DNA from: an uncultured Clostridia bacterium
GTDB lineage: Bacteria; Bacillota; Clostridia; TANB77; CAG-508
Length of the DNA stretch: 64,000 bases
Assembly: GCA_934168365.1 (NCBI GenBank)
Contig: CAKPNJ010000006.1
Span: 937-64,936 of the forward strand
Direction: 5' to 3'
The translations under genes were made by a program, and so were the position numbers. Positions 2,141-8,286 of the stretch are shown in pieces; position 1 is the first letter of the stretch, and the number at the start of each line of letters is the position of its first letter. Below the pieces are notes generated by a model that made no database searches, was not told where the DNA came from, and saw only the letters and a list, made by a program, of their open reading frames with translations.

Positions 2141-2747
2141 TTACTTTTTTAGTCCTTGATTATTTTTATTTTTTTCAGAATTATACACATATCTATAAAT
2201 TTCTCCCCATGAATTTACTTCTTTTAAATACTTATTTTCTTCCAACTTTTGTTTTTTTACATCTCTTAGATATAAAGTATTAACAAAATTATCTGATAAT
2301 TTTTTACATATCAAGTAATTATCATCTATCATTAAATCAATTTTTTCTTTTAGGCATATCTGTAATTTGTCTAAAACTTTCCAATAATATTTATCAAACT
2401 TCAAATTCTCTTTTTTTAATCTTTCTTCAGCTATTTTTTGCATTTCTACATTGTCATATCCTCTTGATGAAATGATTATAAGTTTATGTCCATTTTCTTT
2501 CAATAATTTAATAACTTCTTTAGCTCCGTGGCATAATGTTAACTATTTTAGATACTTGTAAAAAATATTTTTTTATAAATTTTTCACTTATATCTTTATT
2601 CCATCCGTATCTTTCTTCTAGGTTAAATTTATTTGTATTTAGAATTCCCTTGCCATTTAACTCTAGCAAATCATATAATTCTGCTCTAGTTCTTAATTCT
2701 TTTTCAAAATCAAGTAGTACTCCATCTACATCAATTCCAATTTGCAT
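2141..2747 (-). pseudogene. HAD-superfamily 5'(3')-deoxyribonucleotidase-like protein, split into two ORFs; +1 shift at CGG 2526..2528 restores it
   Basis: Upstream ORF MQIGIDVDGVLLDF... (HAD motif I) ends ...NIMPRS*. Skipping C2528 reads ...NIMP-GAKEVIKLLKENGHKLIIISSRG...MIDD. Confidence 0.75.
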
Positions 2748-2784
2748 TATTATCGCACCCCATTTCGTTAAATAAAAGTTATCT

Positions 2785-3429
2785 TTACAATTCCATGAAA
2801 TCTCCCAATGTCAATTGTTGAGGTTCGCTATATTTTGTTTTTATTTTCGCAATATTTAATAACTCATCCAAATATATTATCTCATGCTTTCCTTTTTGTA
2901 GTTCAAGTAATTTTAAAAAGACTTCTGCTGTTAAAAAGCAATCAGAAAGAGCTCTATGCCTATTTTCTGGGATTCGTAATCCCAATGTGCTTGCCAAAGT
3001 ATCTAATTTGTAATTTGACAATTTTGGTAAAACATGTTTGGCTAATAAAATAGTATCTATTATTGGTGTTTTAGCTATTCCTTTACATTCATCTGTATAA
3101 TGAGATAAAATATTAGCTTCATATTTAGCATTTTGTGCAATAAATACATAGTCTTTTTTTGAACAAGATTTATCAATTATTCTCATTGCTCTTTTAGCAT
3201 CTATACCATGCATTAAATCTTGTTCTGTTATACCTGTTTGTGAAGTATCAAAACGCGTTAAGTGTAAACCTTCTGGTGGCTTAATCAGCCAATCAATTGA
3301 TGCATTATTATCTATTTTATTTTGTTTTATTCTTAATATTCCTACTTCTATTGGCTCTGGTGGTCTTCCTTTTGGAGTAATCGTTTCAAAATCTATTACT
3401 AAAAATTCTGTATCATCTATTAATTTCAT
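2785..3429 (-). CDS. DEDD-family 3'-5' exonuclease (DnaQ/epsilon-like)
   Basis: 214 aa; FLVIDFETI (Exo I), H..ALSD near the C-terminus. Confidence 0.8.
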   Translation of the reverse strand: MKLIDDTEFLVIDFETITPKGRPPEPIEVGILRIKQNKIDNNASIDWLIKPPEGLHLTRFDTSQTGITEQDLMHGIDAKRAMRIIDKSCSKKDYVFIAQNAKYEANILSHYTDECKGIAKTPIIDTILLAKHVLPKLSNYKLDTLASTLGLRIPENRHRALSDCFLTAEVFLKLLELQKGKHEIIYLDELLNIAKIKTKYSEPQQLTLGDFMEL

Positions 3430-3437
3430 TATAAAAT

Positions 3438-3755
3438 CTAATCCTCCTCAACATCTTTTAAAAAGGTTTTGTTTTTGAAAGCTCCCTTTCTATTTCTCTT
3501 TTTGATTCTAACTTGTTCCACTTCTTCCATACTTGTACCTCTATATTCAAGTATTGCATAAATAACTTCCATTACATCTGCCATTTCTTCAACGCTATAA
3601 TCAGCTAAATATTCTTCTACTTCTTCTTTTAATTTTTTGTCTAATTCTTCTCCATATCTTTTATCGTCTAAGATTTCATATGTTACTTTGCAACCTTTAT
3701 CTTCCATTATTTTTACATTGTTATCTCTAATTAACTTATTATATGTATATAGCAT
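3438..3755 (-). CDS. MazG-like / PRA-PH-like all-alpha nucleoside triphosphate pyrophosphohydrolase
   Basis: 105 aa; YNKLIRD...EEVEEYL...EEMADVMEVIYAI pattern of house-cleaning NTP-PPases. Confidence 0.7.
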   Translation of the reverse strand: MLYTYNKLIRDNNVKIMEDKGCKVTYEILDDKRYGEELDKKLKEEVEEYLADYSVEEMADVMEVIYAILEYRGTSMEEVEQVRIKKRNRKGAFKNKTFLKDVEED

Positions 3756-6505: not shown

Positions 6506-6518
6506 TTCTTCTCCTCCT

Positions 6519-7004
6519 TTACATTTCCCATGGAAATACAACCCAACCTCTTACACTTTTTCCTATGTATTCTATTTCATCCTTATAGTTATTTTTATTA
6601 CTTTTTTCCCAATTTTCCTCATTAACTATGCAAATTGCTGTTCTTATTTCTTTAGGTTTCCATTTTTTTACTTCCTCTTTAATTTTTTTAATTGTTGCGC
6701 CACTTCCTAATATATCATCAACGATTAAAACTTTTTTTCCTTTAATGTTTGAGAGATTTATATTTTTATCAATTATAGGTTCCTGCTTAATGGCATTTAT
6801 TTCATCGTTTAGTGTCTCTATTGATTTAATATTTTCAACATTTCTTACATTTAATTTATGGGCTAAAATGACACTAGGAATCATTCCTCCTCTTACTATT
6901 GAAATTATTATTTCAGTTTTGTAAGTTTTTTCTATATTACTACCCATATATTTAATTATATCTGTGATTTCTTTCCAACTTATATAATTAATATTGTTAT
7001 TCAT
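6519..7004 (-). CDS. type I purine phosphoribosyltransferase, Gpt/XGPRT-like
   Basis: ISW...IVRGGMIPS...KVLIVDDILGSGAT (PRPP motif)...WVVFPWE. Start at MNNNINY behind GGAGG; overlaps the queC stop. Confidence 0.75.
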   Translation of the reverse strand: MNNNINYISWKEITDIIKYMGSNIEKTYKTEIIISIVRGGMIPSVILAHKLNVRNVENIKSIETLNDEINAIKQEPIIDKNINLSNIKGKKVLIVDDILGSGATIKKIKEEVKKWKPKEIRTAICIVNEENWEKSNKNNYKDEIEYIGKSVRGWVVFPWEM

Positions 7005-7602
7005 TATTTCCTCCAACATTTTTATTTTTTAAATATTTTTCCAATCCGTTAAATTTCATTTTACAAGAAAGACATTTTTTACAATGCTTATCTTGTCTAT
7101 TCCAACAAGAGAATGTTTTATTTTCTATAAATTCTAAGTATCCCAATTTATCAGCAATTCCCCATATTTCAGCTTTATCCAATTTTATAAGTGGTGCTTC
7201 TATATTAATATTGTTTCCAATTGCTATCTTTATCGTAGTCTTTAAGTTTTCAAAAAATTCTATTGAACAATCTGGATGACTACTATTTCCAGCTAAACCA
7301 CATATAACATTATTGATGCCATTAGCATTAGCATAAATTGTTGCTAAAGAAATCAAAATTAAATTTCTTCCTTCAAAATTATTACTTTTAGAAATGTCTT
7401 GTAATACACCAATGTCATATATTTTATGTTCAATCTCTAATTCTTTACAAATCTGCTTTGCACATTCTATATCTTTTTTATATTTGTTATTATATATAAA
7501 TGATATTGCATGAACATTCTCTTTTCTAAATTTATTAATTGCCATTAATAAACAAGTTGTACTATCTTGTCCTCCTGATAAAATAACTAATGCATTATCC
7601 AT
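6997..7602 (-). CDS. queC: 7-cyano-7-deazaguanine synthase (QueC family PP-loop ATPase)
   Basis: 201 aa; LSGGQDSTTC PP-loop; C-terminal C...C..C..C zinc motif. Confidence 0.85.
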   Translation of the reverse strand: MDNALVILSGGQDSTTCLLMAINKFRKENVHAISFIYNNKYKKDIECAKQICKELEIEHKIYDIGVLQDISKSNNFEGRNLILISLATIYANANGINNVICGLAGNSSHPDCSIEFFENLKTTIKIAIGNNINIEAPLIKLDKAEIWGIADKLGYLEFIENKTFSCWNRQDKHCKKCLSCKMKFNGLEKYLKNKNVGGNNE

Positions 7603-7617
7603 ATTTTCCCCCTGAAT

Positions 7618-8286
7618 TTAAAAAATATTGTATTTAATATTATTGTCGTATACATCTTCATTTTCTATTTGTTTAACCTTACTAATTACTTTATATGTAA
7701 TCGGTGTGGCAATAATTTCTATTAATATTTTAAATATAGCTTGGTTTATTATCATATTTATTAGTACTTCGTTTGGAATTTGTCCCAAAAAAGCAATTGT
7801 AATAAAGATTATAGTATCTATTGCCTCTCCAAATATTGTCGAAGTTATAGTCCTTAGTGCTAAAAATTTCCCTTTTGTTGCTACCTTTAATTTTGATAGT
7901 ATAATTGAGTTCAAGAAGTTTCCAAATAAAAATCCAGCTAATGAAGCTACTAAATTTCTTGGTGTTGTACCTAAGACTATGTTATATTCATCTGAATTTT
8001 CAAAAGTAACTGGATATGGTAGTTTTAATACTAGCATAAATATTAACACCATTATTAAATTACATATAAAACTTAACCAGATTATTTTTTTGTTTTTATT
8101 AAAACCATAGACTTCTGTAAATATATCACTTAAAATATATGTAAATGGAAATACGATTACTGCACCTGTTAAAGAAATATTACATATAGATATTAATCTT
8201 CCTGCTAAAATATTAGAAATCAAAATCAAAGTAATATATAAACTTGTAAATATTAAAAATATTTTTGATATATTATCTTTTTTCAT
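7618..8286 (-). CDS. yhhQ: queuosine-precursor (preQ0/preQ1) transporter, YhhQ/DUF165 family
   Basis: 222 aa polytopic membrane protein; FPFTYILSDIFTEVYG signature. Confidence 0.8.
   Translation of the reverse strand: MKKDNISKIFLIFTSLYITLILISNILAGRLISICNISLTGAVIVFPFTYILSDIFTEVYGFNKNKKIIWLSFICNLIMVLIFMLVLKLPYPVTFENSDEYNIVLGTTPRNLVASLAGFLFGNFLNSIILSKLKVATKGKFLALRTITSTIFGEAIDTIIFITIAFLGQIPNEVLINMIINQAIFKILIEIIATPITYKVISKVKQIENEDVYDNNIKYNIF

What the first reader, a model, noticed from the sequence alone, without database searches (positions are those of the whole stretch)
2141..8286. Nine-gene operon joining preQ0 handling (YhhQ, QueC) to nucleotide-building and sugar-amination enzymes: a candidate 7-deazapurine (amino)nucleotide pathway
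The genes are packed with overlaps or gaps of at most 37 nt and end at a terminator at 2079..2113. The order is YhhQ, QueC, Gpt-like PRTase, TMK-like NMP kinase, radical-SAM/SPASM, DegT aminotransferase, MazG-like NTP-PPase, DEDD exonuclease and HAD 5'-nucleotidase.
Queuosine biosynthesis does not use a PRTase or a kinase, because TGT swaps in the free base. No tgt/dpdA, folE, queD or queE is present in the window.
A PRTase acting on a 7-deazaguanine base is the committed step in the toyocamycin/sangivamycin (ToyH) and tubercidin (TubE) pathways. A sequence of kinase, oxidation, transamination, pyrophosphatase and phosphatase mirrors the puromycin route to 3'-amino-3'-deoxyadenosine (Pur10, Pur4, Pur7, Pur3).
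My inference is: base imported or made as preQ0, converted to the ribonucleotide, then to the di/triphosphate, followed by sugar or side-chain amination, then trimming to NMP or nucleoside. The product could be a nucleoside antimetabolite, a chain-terminating antiviral nucleotide, or a precursor for modified DNA. The last option would fit a phage-derived module, given the adjacent integrase remnant. I know of no described system with this gene set.
Basis: inference. Interest (0 to 1): 0.8.

Follow-up and report, generated by a model that had tools for sequence, protein, structure and literature searches.

The report
Mobile operon for modified 7-deazaguanine nucleotide
A compact, horizontally mobile operon, conserved in four bacterial phyla and not described in the papers I could search, appears to build a sugar-modified 7-deazaguanine nucleotide and carries a DNA proofreading exonuclease with a sliding-clamp docking motif, so the product may be a DNA chain terminator that the producer protects itself against.

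Summary
Window 2117-8444 (- strand) is one tightly packed operon: YhhQ, QueC, 6-oxopurine PRTase, TMK-like kinase, radical-SAM enzyme, DegT aminotransferase, small MazG/HisE-like NTP pyrophosphatase and DnaQ/PolC-like exonuclease. The ninth gene (HAD) is split by an inherited frameshift.

The radical-SAM enzyme defines a rare family: about 32 of 185,579 species genomes, and none in IMG/VR. It almost always sits with PRTase, TMK-like kinase(s) and DegT, and usually with the exonuclease. A 7-deazaguanine source lies beside them: QueC with or without YhhQ in Clostridia, QueD/QueE with or without FolE in Actinomycetota. One lineage fuses QueC to the PRTase. Others add NDK or a second kinase. NUDIX replaces the MazG-like gene.

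The cassette sits in different genomic contexts, including beside BREX and Thoeris and inside integrative elements.

New here: 26 of 30 exonucleases end in Q-x-x-L-F, the beta-clamp-binding consensus.

Best reading, inferred and not shown: base to NMP to NTP, then radical-SAM oxidation or dehydration plus transamination of the ribose. That would give a chain-terminating 7-deaza-G nucleotide, with the clamp-tethered exonuclease and the NTP-PPase as self-protection. Whether the role is anti-phage defence or an antibiotic is unresolved. No paper I searched describes this gene set.

The parts
8386..8414 (-). Promoter-like site TTGAAA-17 nt-TATAAT upstream of yhhQ
   Evidence: 11 of 12 matches. The sequence is conserved in L087, L089 and L091.
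8336..8370 (-). Leader hairpin (AAGAAGAAAA...UUUCUUCUU) followed by a U-run, terminator-like, between the promoter and yhhQ
   Evidence: z = -3.3. The stem sequence is conserved in four loci with variable loop length, but shows no covariation. Its function is inferred: attenuation, so that the operon is off by default.
7618..8286 (-). YhhQ/Vut_1 family 7-deazaguanine precursor transporter
   Evidence: PF02592 162 bits. TIGR00697 125 bits (cutoff 51). NCBI names it 'queuosine precursor transporter'.
6997..7602 (-). QueC (7-cyano-7-deazaguanine synthase), with PP-loop SGGQDS and a C-terminal Cys cluster
   Evidence: PF06508 169 bits. TIGR00364 171 bits (cutoff 150). Fused to the PRTase in L003/L004.
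6519..7019 (-). 6-oxopurine-type phosphoribosyltransferase
   Evidence: PF00156 67.5 bits. The nearest solved structures are the archaeal purine PRTases GpT-2 (4z1o) and 1vdm. The PRPP-loop motif is conserved in 39 of 40 family loci.
5840..6541 (-). Thymidylate-kinase-family NMP kinase
   Evidence: PF02223 49 bits. TMK structures are the best PDB hits. The P-loop is conserved. There are one or two copies in every complete locus.
4868..5836 (-). Radical-SAM enzyme of a rare family, with CX3CX2C plus a 4-Cys auxiliary-cluster motif
   Evidence: It lies below the cutoffs of viperin and of every other named NCBIfam model. The AF2 model has pLDDT 92.5. The nearest folds are CteB, BlsE, ChlB, anSME, viperins, MoaA and DesII, at TM 0.55-0.68.
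3755..4852 (-). DegT/DnrJ/EryC1/StrS-family PLP aminotransferase with the Schiff-base lysine
   Evidence: PF01041 258 bits. The S-x4-K-x4-GEGG motif is present in 39 of 40 loci. PDB neighbours are sugar aminotransferases, including BtrR 2c7t.
3438..3755 (-). 105-aa putative all-alpha NTP pyrophosphohydrolase (MazG/HisE-like)
   Evidence: Invariant EExxE...EExxD motif. Sub-threshold PRA-PH hits in 9 of 14 members. Source names are NTP pyrophosphohydrolase and MazG superfamily. Foldseek found nothing. NUDIX replaces it in L009 and in actinomycetes.
2785..3429 (-). DnaQ/PolC-like DEDDh 3'-5' exonuclease. The last 11 codons (2788-2820) encode QQLTLGDFMEL, a beta-clamp-binding-type motif
   Evidence: PF00929 70.6 bits. 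PolC exo region 85 bits. The best PDB hit is the PolC exo domain 2p1j. Catalytic residues and a C-terminal Q-x-x-L-F are conserved in 26 of 30 family members, against 1.8% of background C-termini.
2141..2747 (-). HAD-type phosphatase gene interrupted by an inherited frameshift near 2527
   Evidence: The frameshift is identical in L005 and L006. The same split into two ORFs is seen in L007. The gene is absent from L003, L089 and L091.
2080..2112 (-). Intrinsic terminator hairpin ending the operon
   Evidence: Homology with the 96%-identical copy in L005 ends at 2117.

Best explanation
Window 2117-8444 is a self-contained, horizontally mobile operon. I propose that it makes a sugar-modified 7-deazaguanine nucleotide at the triphosphate level and protects the producer from it.

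Proposed route:
1. YhhQ imports a 7-deazaguanine base (preQ0 or CDG), and QueC supplies or finishes the 7-cyano base. The family assignments are shown. The substrates are inferred.
2. The 6-oxopurine-type PRTase joins the base to PRPP to give the NMP. This is inferred, by analogy with ToyH and TubE.
3. The TMK-like kinase raises the NMP to the NDP. A second TMK-like kinase or an NDK where the cluster encodes one, otherwise presumably a host kinase, would take it on to the NTP. This is inferred. Other family members add that second kinase or NDK to the cluster.
4. The radical-SAM enzyme, which has one auxiliary Fe-S cluster, oxidises or dehydrates the ribose to a keto-sugar. The DegT aminotransferase converts the keto group to an amine. 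The most likely product is a 3'-amino-3'-deoxy or 3'-amino-2',3'-dideoxy nucleotide. This is inferred from the BtrN/BtrS and Pur10/Pur4 precedents.
5. The product blocks 3' ends, so it acts as a chain terminator for DNA synthesis (inferred).
6. The producer is protected in two ways. A DnaQ/PolC-like exonuclease with a C-terminal Q-x-x-L-F motif would dock on the host beta sliding clamp and excise the analogue from host primer ends. The MazG-like NTP pyrophosphatase (NUDIX in other lineages) would limit the pool. The motif and catalytic residues are shown. Their function is inferred.

The most likely biological role is anti-phage defence. Phage replisomes that do not use the host clamp would not be rescued. 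Antagonism through an exported nucleoside is the close alternative.
For: Real functional unit:
- The same PRTase/TMK-like/radical-SAM/DegT core, usually with the exonuclease, occurs in about 45 loci from Clostridia, Actinomycetota, Ktedonobacteria and Candidatus Torokbacteria.
- Catalytic motifs are conserved throughout.

7-deazaguanine link:
- QueC with or without YhhQ, or QueD/QueE with or without FolE or FolE2, flank the PRTase in nearly all loci.
- QueC and the PRTase are fused in L003/L004.
- The PRTase is closest to 6-oxopurine PRTases.

Triphosphate-level chemistry:
- Two TMK-like kinases occur in many actinomycete loci, and NDK occurs in L086 and L020.
- A MazG-like gene or a NUDIX gene is present in most loci as non-homologous alternatives.
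- The N-terminal half of the radical-SAM enzyme resembles viperins, which act on NTPs and sit beside kinases.

Amination:
- DegT retains its Schiff-base lysine in 39 of 40 loci.
- BtrR is among the nearest solved structures.
- The radical-SAM enzyme has CX3CX2C plus four further invariant Cys, as in dehydrogenase and dehydratase radical-SAM enzymes.

Action on DNA 3' ends and self-protection:
- The exonuclease is PolC-proofreading-like.
- It ends in Q-x-x-L-F after a variable linker in 26 of 30 members, against 1.8% of background C-termini.

Mobility and defence context:
- A 96%-identical copy shares only 2117-8444.
- At least five different insertion contexts are seen in Clostridia.
- The cluster lies next to BREX in L001 and next to Thoeris and conjugation genes in L085.
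- It lies inside an integrase-flanked element in L002.
- AbiE lies 6 kb away in L089.
- An integrase remnant lies beside it in the window.
- No exporter or regulator gene is present in the Clostridial cassette.
- The conserved leader terminator suggests conditional expression.
Against: - Nothing was tested biochemically. The reaction of the radical-SAM enzyme cannot be read from sequence or fold; the nearest structures reach only TM 0.55-0.68 and include peptide maturases.
- No PADLOC model recognises the set as a defence system. The only PADLOC matches to its proteins are component models at unassessed scores.
- Only 3 of the roughly 9 distinct contexts for which I had Pfam annotation lie beside known defence systems.
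- One actinomycete class adds a GT4 glycosyltransferase, a PIG-L deacetylase and WbqC. Another adds HAD and a SAICAR-synthase-like gene. These look like secondary-metabolite tailoring.
- Four Micromonospora/Dactylosporangium loci lack the exonuclease.
- L002 and L085 carry no 7-deazaguanine gene.
- An NTP-PPase plus a HAD could equally mean that the end product is a nucleoside.
- Clamp binding by the C-terminal motif is inferred from sequence only.
- How a PRPP-derived ribonucleotide would become a DNA-polymerase substrate is unknown.
Confidence: 0.5

Rival explanations
1. The chemistry is the same, but the operon is a biosynthetic gene cluster for an exported nucleoside antibiotic. The NTP is made, aminated, and then trimmed by the NTP-PPase and a phosphatase to a 7-deazaguanine aminonucleoside that poisons competitors. 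The exonuclease and the NTP-PPase are producer self-resistance genes.
For: - NTP-PPase (MazG-like or NUDIX) and HAD genes parallel the NUDIX and HAD genes of the toyocamycin and tubercidin clusters listed in the 2026 survey, and Pur7/Pur3 of puromycin (my own knowledge).
- Most genome hits are actinomycetes.
- Some clusters add GT4, PIG-L and WbqC, or a methyltransferase, HAD and a SAICAR-synthase-like gene.
- A 2026 survey finds many uncharacterised 7-deazapurine clusters in Kitasatospora and Micromonospora.
Against: - The Clostridial cassette has no exporter and no pathway regulator. Its only membrane protein is an importer.
- The HAD is frameshifted in the window lineage and absent from the other Clostridial copies.
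- The minimal six-gene form sits beside Thoeris and in integrative or conjugative elements.
- The cassette is spread patchily across four phyla with sharp boundaries.
Confidence: 0.25
2. The pathway makes a 7-deazaguanine nucleotide, but the radical-SAM/DegT pair does something other than 3'-amination. Candidates are a DesI/DesII-like deoxygenation, a viperin-like dehydration, 2'-amination, or modification of the C7 side chain. In that case the product is not a chain terminator, and the exonuclease has another role.
For: - The fold neighbours of the radical-SAM enzyme include DesII, BlsE, viperins and MoaA as well as dehydrogenases.
- No named model reaches its cutoff.
- QueC, the methyltransferase and the GT set are mutually exclusive next to the PRTase. 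This shows that the C7 substituent is a site of variation.
Against: - DegT keeps the Schiff-base lysine typical of aminotransferases, not the histidine of the dehydratases.
- DegT-family enzymes act on keto-sugars and inososes.
- A conserved clamp-motif proofreading exonuclease is hard to explain unless the product ends up at DNA 3' ends.
Confidence: 0.15
3. The operon supplies a modified 7-deaza-(d)GTP for incorporation into the cell's own or a phage's nucleic acid. This would be a replicative route to 7-deazaguanine DNA or RNA modification, used as protection from restriction.
For: - 7-deazaguanines occur in phage and bacterial DNA.
- The exonuclease carries a clamp-binding-type motif, so the system touches replication.
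- An integrase remnant lies next to the operon.
Against: - No tgt/dpdA-type transglycosylase is associated with any of the loci I had annotated by Pfam or by my own query set. None of those query sets included a tgt/dpdA model.
- The radical-SAM family is absent from 2.9 million viral contigs.
- No cognate restriction or polymerase gene is conserved in the cluster.
- An aminotransferase and an NTP-PPase are not needed for this role.
Confidence: 0.07
4. Fortuitous adjacency. YhhQ and QueC serve ordinary queuosine salvage, and the other genes are unrelated housekeeping or sugar-biosynthesis genes.
For: YhhQ and QueC pass their equivalog cutoffs.
Against: - The whole set is conserved as one block in about 45 loci across four phyla.
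- QueC and the PRTase are fused in one lineage.
- The block moves as a unit between genomic contexts.
- No QueD, QueE, FolE or TGT candidate was found in the window.
Confidence: 0.02

Closest known systems
Toyocamycin/sangivamycin and tubercidin biosynthetic clusters (ToyH and TubE PRTases)
   Same: A 7-deazaguanine base (preQ0 or CDG) is made by FolE, QueD, QueE and sometimes QueC, then joined to PRPP by a PF00156 PRTase. NUDIX or HAD genes are present.
   Different: The purine-remodelling genes that define those pathways are absent: GMP reductase, adenylosuccinate synthetase and lyase, and the UbiD decarboxylase. This cluster has instead a TMK-like kinase, a radical-SAM enzyme, DegT and a DnaQ-like exonuclease, and it occurs far outside Streptomyces.
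Puromycin/A201A route to 3'-amino-3'-deoxyadenosine (Pur10, Pur4, Pur7, Pur3). Cited from my own knowledge
   Same: The logic is the same: oxidise the 3'-OH of an NTP, transaminate with a DegT-family enzyme, then apply a pyrophosphatase and a phosphatase.
   Different: The oxidant here is a radical-SAM enzyme and not an NAD-dependent dehydrogenase. The base is a 7-deazaguanine built on PRPP. The phosphatase is frameshifted or absent. A proofreading exonuclease is added.
BtrN/BtrS (butirosin 2-deoxystreptamine) radical-SAM dehydrogenase plus DegT-family aminotransferase. Mechanism cited from my own knowledge; BtrR structure
   Same: A radical-SAM enzyme with one auxiliary 4-Cys cluster is paired with a DegT-family aminotransferase, and the pair converts a secondary alcohol to an amine. 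BtrR is among the top PDB neighbours of this DegT.
   Different: BtrN itself is not among the 50 best fold matches. The substrate here is presumably a nucleotide and not an aminocyclitol.
Prokaryotic viperins (pVips) with adjacent nucleotide kinases
   Same: A radical-SAM enzyme next to an NMP kinase, with a patchy mobile distribution and defence-island neighbours. pVips make chain-terminating ddhNTPs. The N-terminal 180 residues match the pVip models.
   Different: The score is 80.7 bits against a cutoff of 180, so it is not a viperin. It has a C-terminal auxiliary-cluster domain that viperins lack, and it comes with a PRTase, DegT, an NTP-PPase and an exonuclease.
Dpd and phage DpdA 7-deazaguanine DNA modification; QatABCD and type IV CBASS QueC-like proteins
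   Same: These also use the 7-deazaguanine pathway in a mobile or defence context.
   Different: Those systems need a TGT-family transglycosylase (DpdA or Cap10) or a QatC-type QueC. Here QueC is a canonical TIGR00364 member. QatC scores only 16 bits against a cutoff of 280, and no TGT-like gene is present.
Blasticidin S BlsE/BlsH and desosamine DesI/DesII pairs
   Same: A radical-SAM enzyme and a PLP aminotransferase act together on the sugar of a nucleoside or nucleotide sugar. BlsE and DesII are among the fold neighbours.
   Different: Sequence identity is low (13-16%). The substrates are hexoses and not ribose, and those clusters have no PRTase, kinase or exonuclease.

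Membership tests
Queuosine precursor salvage (YhhQ + QueC) | YhhQ/COG1738 transporter above the equivalog cutoff | tested here: met
   TIGR00697 scores 125.3 bits against a cutoff of 50.95.
Queuosine precursor salvage (YhhQ + QueC) | QueC above the equivalog cutoff | tested here: met
   TIGR00364 scores 171.3 bits against a cutoff of 150.3.
Queuosine precursor salvage (YhhQ + QueC) | Linked tgt, queF, queA and queG/H genes to use the base in tRNA | tested here: not met
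   None is in the operon. The four TGT-sized ORFs I scanned in the window are not TGT (TelA, PFK, SpoIIIAE, one with no Pfam hit). The rest of the genome was not available.
Toyocamycin/sangivamycin-type 7-deazapurine BGC | preQ0 core plus a PF00156 PRTase | tested here: met
   QueC and the PRTase are adjacent. QueD, QueE and FolE are present in the actinomycete versions.
Toyocamycin/sangivamycin-type 7-deazapurine BGC | GMP reductase, adenylosuccinate synthetase and adenylosuccinate lyase (guanine-to-adenine remodelling), as listed | tested here: not met
   None is in the operon or its flanks. None was seen in the Pfam-annotated related loci.
Tubercidin-type BGC | CDG core, PRTase, UbiD decarboxylase, GMP reductase and NUDIX | tested here: not met
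   The PRTase is present, and NUDIX is present in actinomycetes. No UbiD or GMP reductase appears in any annotated locus.
Prokaryotic viperin (pVip) | Radical-SAM enzyme reaching the viperin family model cutoff | tested here: not met
   NF038283 scores 80.7 bits against a cutoff of 180, over the N-terminal 180 residues only. PADLOC pVip scores 79.5 bits.
Prokaryotic viperin (pVip) | Adjacent nucleotide kinase | tested here: met
   The TMK-like gene lies directly upstream, and the same holds in all complete loci.
Radical-SAM dehydrogenase + DegT aminotransferase pair (BtrN/BtrS type) | CX3CX2C plus an auxiliary 4-Cys Fe-S motif in the radical-SAM enzyme | tested here: met
   C12, C16 and C19, plus C250, C268, C302 and C309, are invariant in 20 sequences.
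Radical-SAM dehydrogenase + DegT aminotransferase pair (BtrN/BtrS type) | DegT-family enzyme with a Schiff-base lysine | tested here: met
   The S-x4-K-x4-GEGG motif is present in 39 of 40 loci. PF01041 scores 258 bits.
Radical-SAM dehydrogenase + DegT aminotransferase pair (BtrN/BtrS type) | Alcohol-to-ketone oxidation followed by transamination of the same carbon | not testable with these tools
   This needs anaerobic reconstitution with the nucleotide substrate.
All-alpha NTP pyrophosphohydrolase (MazG/HisE superfamily) | Match to a MazG or PRA-PH family model | tested here: inconclusive
   No hit at threshold. PRA-PH is sub-threshold in 9 of 14 members, best E 0.0009. hhalign to two MazG proteins matches only the EE-ADV helix. 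Foldseek found nothing.
All-alpha NTP pyrophosphohydrolase (MazG/HisE superfamily) | EExxE...ExxD metal-binding motif | tested here: met
   E44, E45, E48, E56, E57 and D60 are invariant.
DnaQ/PolC-type DEDDh 3'-5' exonuclease | Exo I, II and III acidic residues and the histidine | tested here: met
   The motifs DFE, NA..(E/D) and H-x4-D are conserved in 30 sequences. PF00929 scores 70.6 bits, and the best PDB hit is the PolC exo domain.
Beta-sliding-clamp-binding proteins | C-terminal QL[SD]LF or QLxLxL-type motif (consensus cited from my own knowledge) | tested here: met
   26 of 30 family exonucleases carry it, against 36 of 2020 background ORF C-termini. In the window it reads QLTLGDF.
Beta-sliding-clamp-binding proteins | Physical binding to the clamp | not testable with these tools
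   This needs a pull-down or ITC with the C-terminal peptide.
Known anti-phage defence systems (PADLOC-DB v2) | Gene set recognised as a described or candidate system | tested here: not met
   Only component-level matches were found (QueC, pVip and DEDDh, plus weaker ShosT, PRTase and PDC-S48 hits). PADLOC gives no cutoffs, and no multi-gene system matches this set.
Dpd-type 7-deazaguanine DNA modification | DpdA/TGT-family transglycosylase | tested here: not met
   No such gene is in the operon or in any annotated related locus.

The most novel reading that the evidence does not exclude
This is a new type of bacterial immune system. It synthesises a 7-deazaguanine-based, 3'-aminated chain-terminating nucleotide from a salvaged or self-made base. 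It tells self from non-self by tethering a dedicated proofreading exonuclease to the host beta sliding clamp, so that host replication forks are repaired while phage replisomes are left terminated. An NTP pyrophosphatase and a leader attenuator keep the poison in check.
Probability: 0.25. Interest if true: 0.92.

Novelty: new variant of a known kind. Interest (0 to 1): 0.8.

Why it matters
If the inference holds, this is an undescribed branch of 7-deazapurine metabolism: a PRPP-based route to a sugar-aminated 7-deazaguanine nucleotide that uses a new radical-SAM subfamily. It would also be the first case I know of in which a nucleotide-analogue pathway carries its own clamp-tethered proofreading exonuclease as a resistance gene.

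Three fields would gain from it:
- Anti-phage immunity. It would be a chain-terminator system beyond viperin, with a built-in mechanism for telling self from non-self.
- Natural-product and antiviral discovery. It would give a new 7-deaza aminonucleotide scaffold, and an enzyme pair able to aminate nucleotides anaerobically.
- Replication biology. It would show trans-acting excision of chain terminators at the clamp.

The hypothesis is directly testable, because the cassette is only 6.3 kb and apparently self-contained.

Tried and rejected
- Rfam scan of the whole window at gathering thresholds, and of 8200-9600 at E up to 5. No preQ1 or other riboswitch lies upstream of yhhQ.
- tRNA scan for an integration site. 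None found.
- PADLOC. The set is not recognised as any described or candidate defence system; there are only component-level matches.
- AF2 model of the 105-aa protein searched with Foldseek against the PDB. Nothing significant, and pTM is only 0.55. hhalign to two MazG proteins matched one helix only. The MazG-like call therefore rests on the motif, sub-threshold PRA-PH hits and source names.
- Foldseek of the high-confidence radical-SAM model. It gives only generic SPASM/twitch and nucleotide-acting radical-SAM neighbours at TM 0.55-0.68, so the reaction cannot be assigned.
- IMG/VR scan for the radical-SAM family. There are no true members, which argues against a phage origin.
- The long proteins (700-2900 aa) that scored well in the representative search are tandem radical-SAM/SPASM repeats and not fusions of this pathway.
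- The Ham1-like ITPase gene just downstream (1458-2033) looked like a tenth member. A 96%-identical copy of the cassette lacks it, so I excluded it.
- The leader hairpin shows no covariation. I cannot call it a structured regulatory RNA beyond a conserved terminator-like element.
- Seven literature searches found no paper on this gene set, and two papers were read.
- Not done: I did not compare the PRTase with ToyH or TubE sequences, which were not available to me.

Full report
**1. What is in the window**

Between 2141 and 8286 all long ORFs lie on the - strand. They overlap or are separated by at most 37 nt.
- YhhQ/Vut_1: TIGR00697 'queuosine precursor transporter', 125 bits against a cutoff of 51.
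- QueC: TIGR00364, 171 bits against a cutoff of 150.
- A Pribosyltran-domain protein. Its nearest solved relatives are archaeal 6-oxopurine PRTases.
- A thymidylate-kinase-family protein.
- A radical-SAM protein.
- A DegT/DnrJ/EryC1/StrS aminotransferase (258 bits).
- An RNase_T-fold exonuclease. Its best matches are the PolC proofreading region (85 bits) and the solved PolC exonuclease domain 2p1j.

No QueD, QueE or FolE homologue exists elsewhere in the 64 kb. The four TGT-sized ORFs I scanned are not TGT; one has no Pfam hit. Base composition (about 26% G+C), sporulation genes and source names place the window in a Clostridiaceae chromosome.

**2. Corrections to the observation**

*The HAD gene is broken.* It reads as two ORFs (2520-2747 and 2141-2503). 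They join into one HAD-like protein only if the frame is shifted near 2527 (...NIMPRS* against ...GAKEVIKLLKENG). The same frameshift sits at the same bases in L005 and L006, and L007 shows the same split into two ORFs. It is therefore inherited and not a sequencing error. More distant Clostridial copies have no HAD at all.

*The 105-aa protein is only weakly assigned.* It has no family hit at threshold. It does carry an invariant EExxE...EExxD motif. Nine of 14 relatives give sub-threshold PRA-PH matches. NCBI and JGI call close relatives NTP pyrophosphohydrolase of the MazG superfamily. A structure model found no PDB neighbour.

*The SPASM match is sub-threshold.* What is conserved is CX3CX2C plus four further invariant cysteines, enough for one auxiliary cluster.

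*There are upstream elements.* A promoter-like site (8386-8414) and a terminator-like leader hairpin with a U-run (8336-8370) lie upstream of yhhQ. Both are conserved in sequence in three other loci, but without covariation. No riboswitch was detected.

**3. The cluster is a conserved unit**

The radical-SAM protein defines a rare family.
- It has 65 clusters among 5.8 billion proteins.
- By my count from the score drop-off, it has about 30-40 representatives at 50% identity among 1.84 billion.
- It is found in about 32 of 185,579 species genomes.
- It has no members in 2.9 million viral contigs.

Reading the neighbourhoods gives the same core nearly everywhere: PRTase, TMK-like kinase, radical-SAM and DegT, usually with the exonuclease. 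Hosts are Clostridia, many Actinomycetota, a Ktedonobacterium and a Candidatus Torokbacteria genome.

The 7-deazaguanine link is supplied by different genes in different lineages.
- Clostridia use YhhQ plus QueC.
- Actinomycetes use QueD plus QueE, with or without FolE.
- L086 uses FolE2, QueD and QueE.
- In L003/L004, QueC and the PRTase are one polypeptide.

Further variations point to triphosphate-level chemistry. Many actinomycete loci have a second TMK-like kinase. L086 and L020 have NDK. A NUDIX gene stands where the MazG-like gene is missing.

Directly after the PRTase there is either QueC, or a SAM methyltransferase, or a GT4/PIG-L/WbqC set. These never occur together. This suggests alternative treatments of the C7 carboxyl group of CDG; that is my inference. 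Catalytic motifs of all core enzymes are conserved.

**4. The cassette is mobile**

- A 96%-identical copy (L005) shares only window 2117-8444. The downstream boundary is informative because L005 continues with unrelated genes. The upstream boundary lies near a contig end.
- In L006 an IS110 element has replaced yhhQ and queC.
- Other Clostridial copies sit after an integrase/NUDIX/HIT block, between tilS and ftsH, after a QueH-GNAT gene, or between two Peptidase_S11 ORFs.
- Elsewhere the cluster lies next to BREX genes PglZ and PglY (L001).
- It lies next to a Thoeris locus and conjugation genes (L085).
- It lies inside an integrase-flanked element (L002).
- In the window, a split tyrosine-recombinase gene lies just upstream.
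- The Ham1-like ITPase gene just downstream (1458-2033) is not part of the cassette.

**5. A new clue: the exonuclease tail**

I aligned 30 family exonucleases. After a linker of variable length and sequence, nearly all end in Q-x-x-L-F. Examples are EQSALF, SQGSLF, QQLTLF and QESLF; the window has QQLTLGDFMEL.

The motif occurs in 26 of 30 sequences, against 1.8% of 2020 other ORF C-termini from the same loci. One of the four exceptions is cut by a contig end. Another carries the motif seven residues further from the end.

From established knowledge, QL[SD]LF and QLxLxL at a C-terminus is the bacterial beta-sliding-clamp-binding motif. It is used by Pol II, Pol IV, UmuC, MutS and others. Together with the PolC-type proofreading fold, this suggests that the enzyme works at clamp-loaded primer ends.

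**6. Most likely mechanism**

What is shown: the family assignments, the conservation, the fusions and replacements, and the motif. What is inferred is the following route.
1. A 7-deazaguanine base (preQ0 or CDG) is joined to PRPP.
2. The NMP is phosphorylated to the NDP and NTP.
3. The radical-SAM enzyme oxidises or dehydrates the ribose to a keto-sugar.
4. DegT aminates the keto carbon.

Precedents, from my own knowledge, are the radical-SAM dehydrogenase BtrN with the DegT-family aminotransferase BtrS, and the Pur10/Pur4 steps to 3'-amino-3'-deoxy-ATP. A diol-dehydratase-type reaction would give a 3'-amino-2',3'-dideoxy product.

A 3'-amino nucleotide blocks chain extension. A dedicated clamp-tethered proofreader and an NTP pyrophosphatase then make sense as self-protection. 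The model also offers a way to tell self from non-self: replisomes that do not use the host clamp would not be rescued.

I put 0.85 on 'a real pathway to a modified 7-deazaguanine nucleotide'. I put about 0.5 on the composite statement that includes sugar amination and a self-protective exonuclease. I put about 0.25 on the full defence model.

**7. Rivals**

*Exported nucleoside antibiotic.* This is the close alternative, with the same chemistry.
- For: actinomycete-rich distribution, tailoring genes in some classes, and NTP-PPase/HAD parallels with the toyocamycin, tubercidin and puromycin pathways.
- Against: the Clostridial cassette has no exporter or regulator, the HAD is broken or absent, and the minimal forms keep mobile and defence neighbours.

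*A different reaction for the radical-SAM/DegT pair.* This cannot be excluded, because fold neighbours are only generic.

*A nucleic-acid modification role.* This is unlikely. No transglycosylase is associated with the cluster, and the radical-SAM family is absent from viral contigs.

*Chance adjacency.* This is excluded by the conservation.

**8. Comparison with known systems**

- The operon shares the preQ0/CDG-plus-PRTase start with the toyocamycin and tubercidin clusters. It lacks their defining purine-remodelling genes.
- It resembles pVips in pairing a radical-SAM enzyme with a kinase, but scores far below the viperin cutoff.
- It is not a Dpd, Qat or type IV CBASS relative. QueC is canonical and no TGT-like gene is present.
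- PADLOC does not recognise the set as a defence system; it returns only component-level matches.
- A 2026 survey of 7-deazapurine clusters lists many uncharacterised families but does not describe this gene set.
- Six other literature searches also found nothing.

I therefore rate it as a new variant of a known kind (nucleotide-analogue pathways). There is a real chance that it is a new kind of immune system.

**9. Limits**

- No biochemical step was tested.
- Defence-island association rests on three of about nine annotated contexts.
- Clamp binding is inferred from sequence.
- The ribo-to-deoxy question is open.
- Four actinomycete loci lack the exonuclease, and two minimal loci lack any 7-deazaguanine gene.

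Noticed in passing
window 2141-2747: The HAD phosphatase gene is split by a frameshift near 2527. The frameshift is identical in the related copies L005 and L006 (96-98% identical DNA), and L007 (90%) has the same two-ORF split. It is therefore an old pseudogene or possibly a programmed frameshift.
   Followed up: partly
window 8336-8414: A conserved promoter-like site is followed within about 16 nt by a purine-rich/pyrimidine-rich hairpin and a U-run. The stem is conserved in four loci while the loop varies from 4 to about 35 nt. This looks like a leader attenuator. No known riboswitch matches it.
   Followed up: partly
window 1458-2033: A Ham1/RdgB-family non-canonical purine NTP pyrophosphatase gene lies just beyond the operon terminator. 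It is not part of the mobile cassette, because it is absent next to the copy in L005. It is still a suggestive neighbour for a purine-analogue pathway.
   Followed up: partly
window 288-1378: A DNA-3-methyladenine glycosylase I (Tag) gene lies next to a 126-aa Ogt/MGMT-like ORF. The Ogt-like ORF matches only about the first half of the DNA-binding domain model (positions 1-42 of 81), so it appears truncated.
   Followed up: no
window 8483-9483: A tyrosine recombinase gene is split. A 248-aa ORF has the catalytic domain (8483-9229). A separate short N-terminal fragment reads VKELFIKEV... at about 9369-9483.
   Followed up: partly
L003 8210-9304 and L004 1329-2423: QueC and the PRTase are fused into one 364-aa protein in one Clostridial lineage.
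   Followed up: yes
L006 7451-8629: An IS110-family transposase replaces yhhQ and queC in an otherwise 98%-identical copy of the operon. This copy may depend on host-made base or may be decaying.
   Followed up: partly
family loci L001-L038 and L084-L092: QueC, a SAM methyltransferase, and a GT4 + PIG-L + WbqC set are mutually exclusive directly after the PRTase. This defines three architectural classes and hints at alternative fates of the C7 carboxyl group.
   Followed up: partly
L085 1895-7943: A Thoeris locus with one ThsA (SIR2/STALD) and at least five TIR-domain ThsB genes lies directly upstream of the minimal six-gene form of the cluster, on a conjugative element.
   Followed up: no
L003 6653-7057 and 13539-14498: The cassette is flanked by a 134-aa ORF and a 319-aa ORF that both match Peptidase_S11. 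It may have inserted into, or next to, a duplicated D-Ala-D-Ala carboxypeptidase gene.
   Followed up: no
proteins P0302, P0308, P0332 and others: Very long proteins (700-2900 aa) are made of two or three tandem radical-SAM/SPASM modules, one of them fused to a family-2 glycosyltransferase. They score well against the family profile but are unrelated to this pathway.
   Followed up: partly
L086 1-20981: This metagenomic contig embeds the cluster in a larger block of nucleotide-metabolism genes: nucleoside deoxyribosyltransferase, two His_Phos_1 genes, PRA-CH, CYTH, HD, a second small radical-SAM gene and an EcoRI-type methylase.
   Followed up: no
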